The position numbers and the translations under genes are program-made. 64,000 nt of DNA from Mobula hypostoma (taxonomy: Eukaryota), in NCBI RefSeq assembly GCF_963921235.1, contig NC_086097.1:51214001-51278000 (forward strand), given 5' to 3'. Positions 34,301-37,300 of this stretch are shown here, piece after piece (within the stretch, counting starts at the first letter, position 1; each line of letters starts with the position of its first letter). The notes below the pieces were generated by a model. The model was not told the DNA's origin. It saw nothing but the letters and a program-made list of their open reading frames with translations, and searched no databases.

Positions 34301-37300
34301 ATTCACAATTTAGATCAGAAAGCATTAATAAATCCAAGATTCGATGTATTTCCACCTTTCATGATTTTCTCCATGTCCTCAATAGCTTGATCACAGATAA
34401 CAAATTTTCCAAACCAATCTTTCCCAAAGTTCTCACCTTTGCTGTAGCAGCTCATTTTGCTTCTTATGTAGAAGATTCTGTTGTAACTCCTCTTTCTCTT
34501 GTTGAAGGCTTTCTGTAATCTCAGACATTTGTCTGGAGTAGACCTGCTTGAGCTCCATTTTTTCCTTTACAAACGCTTCCTTCAGTTCTCTTCTTTGTGC
34601 TTCCATCTGTGCCTCAGTGATACTCAGCTTACCTAACAATTCTTCCTTCTCTTTGTAGAAAGATTGGCTTGCTTCTTCCATTTTGTTCCGGGTTGTTTCT
34701 TCATGTTCCTGCTTTAACTGCTTCTCTAGTTGTGCTTTCTCTACATTAAATTTATCCAGCAGTTCATTCTTTTCTTGCCTATGTTTACATTCTATGGAAT
34801 GTTGTAACTTTTGAAGGGTTTCAATTTCTCCTTGAAGATATGAAATATGACTTTTGAGTTCTTTAATTTCTTCTTGCATTTTTGAAATCTCTCTGCTATG
34901 CACCTGGTTAACATCCTCTTTCTCTACTTCATATTTTACTTTTGATTCTTCCATTTGCACCTCATAATAATTTATCTGAAAAGGATAAGTATTGTAGACA
35001 ATTACTGCACTGTCAATTTTGACACTGATATACTGCATGGACAGGCATGCCTATACACAGACACAAATGCATTCACTTCCCCCACATCTTCCCTACCCAA
35101 GCCGCCTCTAACTTTCCAAACTCTGTGAAATGTAAGAGTCAGGAAGGATAGCATTCTAATAAAGTTATCATTAATCCCAATAGAGTCACAGAGCACAACA
35201 GCACAGAAACAGGCCCTTCAACCCATCTAGTCCATGATGCCCTCCCTGGTCCTCAACCCATCTATCTGCACCCAGACCATTGCCCTTCATATCTATCTGG
35301 CTATTAAAATTCAGGTAGTTGAATATAATATCTTGCAATAACAATCTAGAAACTGAACATATTTAATTCTGACCAGTGAGCTGCTGCACTGTTAGAAATA
35401 GTCTTATATCTCACACTTTTCTGATCGATCTAATTTTGATCAACAAAAATGCTAAATGCCATAAGGTGGAATCTGCCTCAGAATACTATGAGATACATAA
35501 TTTTGTTGAAAATTCCATAGAAACATAGGAAGCCTACAGCACAATACAGGTCCTTTGGCCCACAAAGCTGTGCTGCACGTGTCCTTACCTTAGAATTTAC
35601 CTAGGGTTACCCATAACCCTCTATTTTTCTGAGCTCCATATACCTATCCAGGAGTCTCTTAAAAGACCCTATCATATCCACCTCCACCACCGTTGCCGGC
35701 AGCCCATTCCACGCATTCACCACTCTCTGCGTAAAATACTTACCCCCGACACCTCCTCTGTACCTACTTGCAAGCACCTTAAAACTGTGCCCTCTCATGT
35801 TAGACATTTCAGCCCTGGGAAAAAGCCTCTGATTATCCACACAATCAATGCTTCTCATCATCTTATACACCTTTATCAGGTCACCTCTCATCCTCTGATT
35901 TTTTTTTTATTGTGTCGCTCCAGACAGACAGCCATTCTTGTTTGGTGCGTGGTATCAGGATTGGTCTCCTTTTGGATTAACCAGGTCACGATATGAACGT
36001 TCCTGACTCGACCCTTTTTTTTCTTACAAGGCCGAGTGGCTAGCTTGACGCTCAACCTGGCACGGATGGAAAACGTGCTCGGGAGTGGCCCGACTTGGAT
36101 TCGAACTTGGGAGTCCGGCGCTGATGCCACTGCGCCACCAACCGGCCTCCGATACACCTCTATCAGGTCATCTCTTATCCTCCATGTCAATCTATTCTCA
36201 ATAACTTAAACAACAGGAATTCTGCAGATGCTGGAAGTTCAAGCAACATACATCAAAGTTGCTGGTGAACGCAGCAGGCCAAGCAGCATCTATAGGAAGA
36301 GGCGCAGTCGACGTTTCAGGCCGAGACCCTTCGTCAGGACTTCCTTCAGTTAGTCCTGACGAAGGGTCTCGGCCTGAAACGTCGACTGCGCCTCTTCCTA
36401 TAGATGCTGCTTGGCCTGCTGCGTTCACCAGCAACTTTGATGTATATTCTCAATAACTAGTAGTTCACTTGCCTTTGCTTCTAATTCAGCCTTCAAATTA
36501 TGAACTGCCTGTTGATGTTGTTCTTTAATTTGTTCAATGGCCATTTCTGCTTCCAAACTCATGTTTAGTGGATTGCTTTCCTCGGGATCAAAAGCTGAAA
36601 AAGACAGAGACAGGATTTGGCAAGGCAGCCTAATTTGATATTATTATTAGTTTCCTGTCCTTACACAAAAGGATTGGTTTAAAGTGAAAATTCCTAGATG
36701 AGTTCAGGACAGTGATAAACAACACGAGAGTACTCGTGGTTCCACATTAACATGATTGAATGACAACAAAGAACTTTAACTGAACCAGAACTATTATTAC
36801 TTACATGAAAAATTAGGTCACTACAGTACTTCCTTAGATCATTAATATGTGGCTAAAATAAAGAAAATGGAAGAAGCCAAACTGACTTCAAAAAGTCTCC
36901 CTAAGCTTGGCACTGTACCTTGATCATAGTCTCCTATATCATTCTTGCTGTCCATTTCCTCAGACAAAGAACTTCTTAGCAACTGTTTAAAACTTTTCCC
37001 TTGTGTCTGATATGCTTGTAATTCTGATTGGAGCTCATCAATCCGGTCCTGGAGCTCCTACATTAAACACATAAAAGAAATGTGTATCTCTCATTTCACA
37101 GTGGTGAACATACTTTGAGATTCTAACTATGAAGAAATCAACATTTGTTTTTTTAAACAAAAACTTCTTTTCAAATTAGTTTTTATTTGCCCCTCGGTAA
37201 CACTATCTATTCCCAAACTGCAAGTGATAATTTATAACCAGTTCTTTAGAAGCTAAATGAGCGTACAAATAGGTTTCCTTATTTGTTTTGATCTTCAGAG

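What the first reader, a model, noticed from the sequence alone, without database searches (positions are those of the whole stretch)
36193..36458. Perfect fold-back retroelement with an intact hammerhead ribozyme core on each strand, inserted next to a GC splice donor
Seen: a 238-bp insert with a 14-bp TSD is made of two perfectly complementary 94-nt arms. Each arm carries AGUC-CUGACGA-stem II-GAAAC-GUC-GACU, so a transcript of either polarity contains one hammerhead plus its exact antisense. It begins about 28 nt into the intron after the weak GC donor at 36472. Known: Penelope pLTRs carry minimal type I hammerheads that cleave as dimers, and Penelope insertions often have inverted 5' pieces. 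Inference: this is an ambisense, self-masking ribozyme hairpin. It could be a protein-free mobile unit (retrozyme-like) or a dsRNA/ADAR/endo-siRNA substrate that affects NIN splicing.
Basis: partly seen in the sequence, partly recalled or inferred. Interest (0 to 1): 0.75.

Follow-up and report, generated by a model that had tools for sequence, protein, structure and literature searches.

The report
Mirror-image Penelope retroelement insertion stub
This perfect hairpin in an intron of a ray's ninein gene is a recent, short leftover of a very common Penelope-type jumping gene, one of over a thousand similar mirror-image stubs that likely form anew at each insertion rather than spreading as a unit, and its ribozyme is predicted to be blocked.

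Summary
In detail: a 238-bp insert, 14-bp TSD, 94-nt perfect arms, one minimal hammerhead per strand, starting 29 nt into an intron after a GC donor. It is the end of an abundant autonomous Penelope-like element (3.5-kb unit, RT plus GIY-YIG motifs, 34,623 exact tail matches), in the inverted-pLTR-plus-tail layout already published. It is not a separate mobile unit. 55 of 97 position-sampled insertions carry an inverted arm, and 1,504 double-hammerhead junctions vary widely. The 42 copies sharing this exact junction carry the tail on either side (21 vs 20) and span many subfamily haplotypes, so the junction recurs independently. The site is empty in a related species, and RNA-like contigs of both species splice the GC donor identically. 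The hammerhead is predicted fully masked, with no partner in cis. What remains of interest is mechanism: second arms start 33-55 nt in (48 of 55), arm lengths are coupled (rho 0.80), and ends pile up just 5' of the hammerhead. This fits priming on both target strands from one RNA complex; snap-back is not excluded. The scan has noted this pattern before, in this genome and in others.

The parts
36193..36206 (.). Target-site duplication, left copy (14 bp)
   Evidence: a single copy at the empty site in organism B
36207..36247 (-). One-sided 41-nt PLE tail; in the full element it lies in frame with the start of the ORF
36248..36341 (-). Arm 1 (tail arm): pLTR, element sense on the minus strand
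   Evidence: 98% to the L158 unit, positions 1-140
36306..36341 (-). Minimal type I hammerhead; predicted cut between 36310 and 36309
   Evidence: features compared with PMC4209133
36342..36351 (+). Spacer TCCTTCAGTT: element sequence just 5' of hammerhead stem I, belonging to arm 2; joined through a 2-nt CT microhomology
   Evidence: microhomology read from the sequence
36352..36444 (+). Arm 2 (tail-less inverted pLTR), starting about 47-48 nt from the element end
   Evidence: 99% to the unit
36352..36387 (+). Minimal type I hammerhead; predicted cut after 36383
36445..36458 (.). Target-site duplication, right copy
36461..36475 (-). GC-AG 5' splice site of ninein (AAG|GCAAGT, GC at 36472-36471)
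   Evidence: RNA-like contigs X2 and X10 join 36473 to 34975
36473..36596 (-). Ninein exon upstream of the insert
   Evidence: the next exon is named ninein

Best explanation
This is a recent, 5'-truncated insertion of an abundant Penelope-like element in the known inverted-pLTR-plus-tail layout, likely built during this one integration event and likely inert since. Shown: the parent is a 3,513-bp tandem unit encoding RT and GIY-YIG motifs, with the hammerhead at the 5' edge of its pLTR; the mirror form is common, its junctions are diverse, and the site is empty in a related species. Inferred mechanism (about 0.5): the element's protein nicks both target strands 14 bp apart; each nick primes reverse transcription at one of two internal start sites on the same RNA or RNP (the tail end, and about 35-50 nt further in); both copies stop just past the hammerhead's 5' edge; and the two cDNA 3' ends are joined by microhomology, giving a head-to-head palindrome. 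The intact hammerhead on each arm is then a by-product of where copying stops. Predicted: in the ninein pre-mRNA the antisense arm is made first and zips up the hammerhead, so it does not cleave, and the hairpin leaves with the intron.
For: Parent element. Family size: 34,623 exact 35-nt tail matches. Inverted arm in 55 of 97 position-sampled insertions; second arm starts at 33-55 in 48 of 55; TSD of 10-17 nt in 49 of 55; 12 of 97 are short double-hammerhead fold-backs like this one. 1,504 junctions, very diverse among the 50 listed. Same-junction copies: tail left 21, right 20, other 1, in more than ten haplotypes. Arm lengths are coupled (Spearman 0.80, n=55; 0.75 among 17 long pairs). Arms share subfamily alleles at 192 of 216 sites against 109 expected. 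60 of 121 arms reaching position 130 end by 160 (2.27 per 100 nt, against 0.09-0.14 beyond 190). Arm 2 reaches over 5 nt further than arm 1 in 25 of 55. Empty site in X11/X12. A lizard PLE protein cuts and extends both strands from two internal start sites that define the tail (PMC11167929).
Against: Pfam RT and GIY-YIG hits are below the curated cut-offs, so parent identity rests on those hits plus motif reading and layout. Coupled lengths and shared alleles fit a snap-back copy just as well, and two RTs on one RNA would need strand displacement, which is not shown. Allele sharing can also come from subfamilies active at different times or from later homogenisation. 7 of 116 pairs differ at two or more non-CpG diagnostic sites, which points to two templates or conversion in a minority. 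Why copying stops at 130-160 is not explained. It is not known whether the animal behind the spliced contig X2 carries the insert.
Confidence: 0.8

Rival explanations
1. Same parent and same one-off origin, but the mirror arises by self-priming: one cDNA (or an antisense RNA, as proposed in PMC3846280) folds back and copies itself, and later central deletions create the spacer in either orientation.
For: Coupled arm lengths, several pairs with exactly equal ends (141/141, 142/142, 166/166, 638/638), shared alleles and 19 private alleles in both arms. PMC3846280 argues for self-priming from junction palindromes.
Against: Each arm of this insert holds sequence the other lacks (tail in arm 1, spacer in arm 2). 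Arm 2 is the longer arm in 25 of 55, at times by hundreds of bases (51/909, 176/866, 935/2758), so a second step is needed. The sharp second-arm start at 33-55 matches the second RT start site seen in vitro. Seven pairs are multi-site discordant.
Confidence: 0.35
2. The fold-back is itself a non-autonomous mobile unit (retrozyme- or MITE-like) that spreads as a hairpin.
For: 42 exact copies of the junction; 40 of 40 scored hits cover nearly the whole insert at 94-100% identity.
Against: Tail on either side of the asymmetric spacer (21 vs 20), many haplotypes matching between arms, and no near-identical shared flanks. The junction is 42 against 1,504 double-hammerhead junctions (the two patterns differ slightly in flank length). 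Arm length runs continuously up to 2.7 kb. There are no head-to-tail hammerhead repeats as in non-LTR retrozymes (definition read).
Confidence: 0.04
3. Whatever its origin, the 94-bp intronic hairpin acts on ninein as a dsRNA: ADAR substrate, small-RNA source or modulator of the GC donor.
For: A perfect 94-bp duplex 29 nt downstream of the donor. That long perfect duplexes are ADAR and Dicer substrates is general knowledge, recalled.
Against: The same splice junction is in contigs of organism A (X2) and of organism B (X10), whose site is empty. Predicted donor accessibility is nearly unchanged with or without the insert. The insert is young, and over a thousand similar hairpins exist in the genome.
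Confidence: 0.08

Closest known systems
EN+ Penelope-like element insertions with inverted pLTR, optional 30-40 bp tail and TSD (Adineta vaga Pen2/Pen3, PMC3846280; overview PMC8557442; D. virilis Penelope, PMC2377424)
   Same: Head-to-head inverted pLTR, tail on one end only, tail in frame with the ORF start, TSD, partial-tandem full-length copies, palindrome at the junction.
   Different: Here the ORF is absent and both pLTR pieces are minimal (about 100-135 nt); the TSD is 13-16 bp against 8-10 bp in the Adineta examples; there are thousands of copies, so ends can be counted.
Minimal type I hammerheads of metazoan PLEs (PMC4209133)
   Same: CUGANGA core, extra base before stem II, 4-bp helix I, palindromic ACGU in place of helix III, GUC site. 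That paper already notes dual min-HHRs 100-700 bp apart on opposite strands in Schistosoma.
   Different: G10.1 pairs with U, not the conserved C; stem II is weak (4 bp, two G-U); the two motifs are only 10 bp apart, so each is masked.
Anolis Poseidon (PAc) in vitro (PMC11167929)
   Same: Two internal RT start sites bounding the tail; both strands cut and extended; hammerhead cleavage not needed for insertion.
   Different: PAc is Penelope/Poseidon clade; this parent has a Cys-rich RT-EN linker motif (Neptune-like by reading, no tree built). The main text I read does not address inverted insertions.
Non-LTR retrozymes (bioRxiv 10.64898/2026.07.22.740005)
   Same: PLE-derived, ORF-less, type I hammerhead.
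   Different: Retrozymes are head-to-tail repeats with hammerheads on one strand; this is a head-to-head pair with one masked hammerhead per strand and no sign of spreading as a unit.

Membership tests
EN+ Penelope-like element insertion | [quoted passage not shown] | tested here: met
   L163 ORF of 1027 aa and L133 ORF of 679 aa hit RVT_1 and GIY-YIG in that order, both below Pfam cut-offs; VIY..YIG motif seen in translation
EN+ Penelope-like element insertion | pLTR from a partial-tandem arrangement, containing a hammerhead | tested here: met
   L158: 3,513-bp unit with an upstream pLTR starting at hammerhead stem I; L144, L148, L154 and L155 show the upstream copy
EN+ Penelope-like element insertion | 30-40 bp tail at one end only | tested here: met
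   41-nt tail here; second arm starts at 33-55 in 48 of 55 and has a second tail in 1 of 55
EN+ Penelope-like element insertion | Inverted 5'-truncated copy and TSD | tested here: met
Neptune clade | [quoted passage not shown] | tested here: inconclusive
   CKRNKCYTC in the linker; feature described in PMC8557442; no tree built
Metazoan PLE minimal hammerhead | Core CUGANGA / GAAA / NUH, helix I of 4-5 bp, palindromic 15.2-16.2 | tested here: met
   against PMC4209133
Metazoan PLE minimal hammerhead | G10.1-C11.1 pair | tested here: not met
   G-U in this copy and in most young copies; G-C in the older copy at 47110-47127
Metazoan PLE minimal hammerhead | Self-cleavage as a dimer | not testable with these tools
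   Needs an assay. The indirect test (insertion ends at the cut site) showed no clear excess
Non-LTR retrozyme | Head-to-tail tandem units, each with a hammerhead on the same strand | tested here: not met
   Head-to-head pair, one hammerhead per strand
Non-LTR retrozyme | Circular RNA expression | not testable with these tools
   Only assembled contigs were offered
Self-propagating fold-back or MITE-like unit | Copies descend from one master: fixed orientation and haplotype | tested here: not met
   Tail left 21, right 20, other 1 of 42; more than ten haplotypes

The most novel reading that the evidence does not exclude
The thousands of fold-back stubs are a fossil record of how Penelope-like elements integrate: a dimeric RT-endonuclease primes both target strands at the two tail-bounding start sites of one RNA complex, the two copies terminate together at a fixed barrier at the hammerhead's 5' edge (RNA 5' end or ribozyme fold), and end joining seals them. 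This would explain the long-unexplained inverted pLTR and one-sided tail, and is testable with the existing in vitro PLE system.
Probability: 0.4. Interest if true: 0.55.

Novelty: new member of a known kind. Interest (0 to 1): 0.25.

Why it matters
The locus itself matters little: it is a young, probably neutral intronic stub. The family matters somewhat, because how PLEs make inverted pLTRs and tails is called undefined in PMC8557442, and this genome gives countable data: start sites, coupled arm lengths, a stop zone, and recurrent junctions. It is also a caution for repeat curation: an identical junction in dozens of copies can arise independently through microhomology and does not show a mobile unit.

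Tried and rejected
Rfam: no family at gathering score in the window.

Mobile unit inferred from the 42 identical junctions: rejected.

Insertion ends at the hammerhead cut site as a sign of cleavage in the animal: not supported. Outer ends: 3 of 224 arm ends lay at 108-112, one exactly at the cut; among the first 100 of 705 hits of a genome-wide break pattern, most were an older subfamily, and the true breaks, read by eye, were scattered. Inner ends: 8 of 30 scripted loci ended at 108-109 against about 4 expected; two of these are one locus and one is an internal deletion. By eye about 13 of the first 100 of 808 listed hits lay there, near the even share. The site is also confounded by the GTCGAC palindrome.

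An Inr-like TCAGT and an acceptor-like CTTCAG lie at 142-146, in the stop zone (motif names recalled). Many ends lie at 145-160, so a single start site does not explain the peak. Contigs cannot show RNA starts.

No listed sequencing run is on record as RNA; X2, X7 and X10 are guessed RNA, and I rely only on their exon-exon joins. The source-like run X3 showed no contig bridging the insert; this is no evidence either way.

PDB searches found nothing for a ninein exon or the PLE ORF, and the ESM Atlas gave only generic coiled coils.

Literature: 'Penelope-like' + 'twin priming' gave 3 unrelated listings; the five-term self-priming/both-strands search from 2014 on gave 0. These cover only the open library, so the dual-priming reading may be in print elsewhere. 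PMC522041 is not held. No supplements were read; they may hold shark PLE examples.

Full report
Observation. The insert is real and as described: 238 bp at 36207-36444, between two copies of a 14-bp TSD. Its arms, 36248-36341 and 36352-36445, are perfectly complementary over 94 nt around a 10-nt spacer; the next-best perfect inverted repeat within 1 kb in the window is 25 nt. A minimal hammerhead motif lies on each strand. The host gene runs on the minus strand; the exon at 34436-34975 is 99% identical to a ninein of a Mobula ray. The GC donor at 36472 is joined to 34975 in one contig each of runs X2 (organism A) and X10 (organism B), both guessed to be RNA.

Parent element. The same sequence continues at window 27153 into a GIY-YIG coding region. 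A 35-nt tail pattern has 34,623 exact matches in the genome. Long copies encode RT followed by GIY-YIG; the Pfam hits are below cut-off, and the linker holds CKRNKCYTC. L158 shows a 3,513-bp unit whose upstream pLTR starts at hammerhead stem I and whose tail is in frame with the start of the ORF. This matches the layout in PMC3846280 (passages) and PMC8557442 (passages): inverted pLTR, optional one-sided tail, TSD. PMC4209133 (parts 1-2 of 4) already mentions paired minimal hammerheads on opposite strands.

How common the mirror form is. I took the first 100 tail matches listed on contig C1. Three were second matches inside another fetched locus, leaving 97 insertions. Below, positions count inward from the element end: the predicted cut is at 108/109 and stem I ends at 140. 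55 of 97 insertions have an inverted second arm. It starts at 33-55 in 48 of 55 and has its own tail in 1. TSDs of 10-17 nt were found in 49 of 55. Twelve of 97 are short fold-backs with two whole hammerheads, like this one. A genome-wide pattern finds 1,504 double-hammerhead junctions with spacers up to 30 nt; the 50 listed are very diverse, some with templated-looking inserts.

Is it a mobile unit? The exact junction occurs 42 times, and I fetched all 42. The tail lies left of the asymmetric spacer in 21, right in 20, and is unclear in 1. The copies fall into more than ten five-site haplotypes, usually the same on both arms, and no flanks are near-identical. One master fold-back cannot give both tail orientations. 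The junction therefore recurs, most simply through its 2-nt CT microhomology (inference).

Age and host effect. Contigs of two organism-B DNA runs (one sample) continue from the single TSD straight into window 36163-36192, so the site is empty there. The GC donor is thus older than the insert and is spliced the same way without it. Folding predicts little change in donor accessibility. Whether the animal behind X2 carries the insert is unknown. Editing and small RNAs cannot be read from contigs.

The ribozyme. The core, helix I and the ACGU palindrome fit the minimal PLE hammerhead, but G10.1 pairs with U and stem II is weak. In PMC4209133 a single minimal motif showed no cleavage and dimers little; in PMC11167929 (parts 1-2 of 4) cleavage needed protein and was not needed for insertion. 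Here each transcript has one hammerhead, the antisense arm is transcribed first in both polarities, and pairing probability is at least 0.985 throughout (computed for the minus strand). It is predicted inactive. Tests for insertion ends at the cut site gave no clear excess, so I could not confirm that lead; the inner-end test was prompted by note e1-9820663.

Mechanism. Arm lengths are coupled: Spearman 0.80; both long 17, both short 35, mixed 3; 0.75 among the long pairs. Arms of one insertion differ by 2.8% on average, against 5.5% between insertions (49 pairs), and share diagnostic alleles at 192 of 216 sites against 109 expected. At non-CpG sites 31 of 431 are discordant, and 7 of 116 pairs are discordant at two or more; this larger set includes junction-selected loci. 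Ends pile up at 130-160: 60 of 121 arms at risk. In this insert each arm holds sequence the other lacks. The lizard PLE protein extends both strands from two internal start sites bounding the tail. Together these favour priming of both target nicks from one RNA complex, followed by microhomology joining (about 0.5). Snap-back with later central deletion explains the coupling equally well and is not excluded (about 0.35). The cause of the stop zone is open.

Verdict. A real feature and a new member of a known kind: not a new mobile unit, and no shown effect on ninein. Interest 0.25; up to about 0.55 if the dual-priming reading is proven. The scan holds 88 earlier notes with these words in at least 21 genomes; they are unchecked and are not counted as support. 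Other papers: bioRxiv 10.64898/2026.07.22.740005 (part 1 of 5 and passages) and PMC2377424 (passages). The paper on dimer cleavage of PLE hammerheads was not read; only other papers holding its title phrase were listed. No supplements were read.

Noticed in passing
window 27153-29097: Longer copy of the same PLE (950 nt, 91% to the unit) ending in a 12-fold tandem of a 93-bp linker segment; possibly RT stuttering at the 5' junction.
   Followed up: partly
window 46997-47189: Older fold-back of a related subfamily (82-86%) with a 14-bp TSD (46985-46998, 47190-47203), turning inside the hammerhead.
   Followed up: partly
window 47705-47839 and 39996-40070: Decayed solo pLTR pieces (74-76%); older PLE ORF fragments at 20397-22171.
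   Followed up: no
L165 (G000:C1:52553548-52553681): A 92%-identical duplicate of part of the ninein exon next to the insert, 1.3 Mb away, with the GC donor changed; matching variant contigs also occur in organism B.
   Followed up: partly
L098, L131, L133: Three long arms end at about the same place (2758-2765 on the L089 scale), suggesting a second RT stop point.
   Followed up: no
G000, rows: A recurrent 11-nt internal deletion starting at the hammerhead cut site (GTC joined to TTCC) in about 5-6 of the 100 listed rows, read by eye; a TC microhomology or a small subfamily could explain it.
   Followed up: no
element positions 117-128 (window 36363-36375): The young, expanding subfamily has G10.1-U11.1 where the older copy at 47110-47127 has G-C, hinting at relaxed need for ribozyme activity.
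   Followed up: partly
L024: The two arms of one fold-back differ at three subfamily-diagnostic sites, as expected from two template RNAs or a later conversion.
   Followed up: partly
L168: One short arm ends exactly at the predicted cut site and abuts the TSD; no genome-wide excess was seen.
   Followed up: yes
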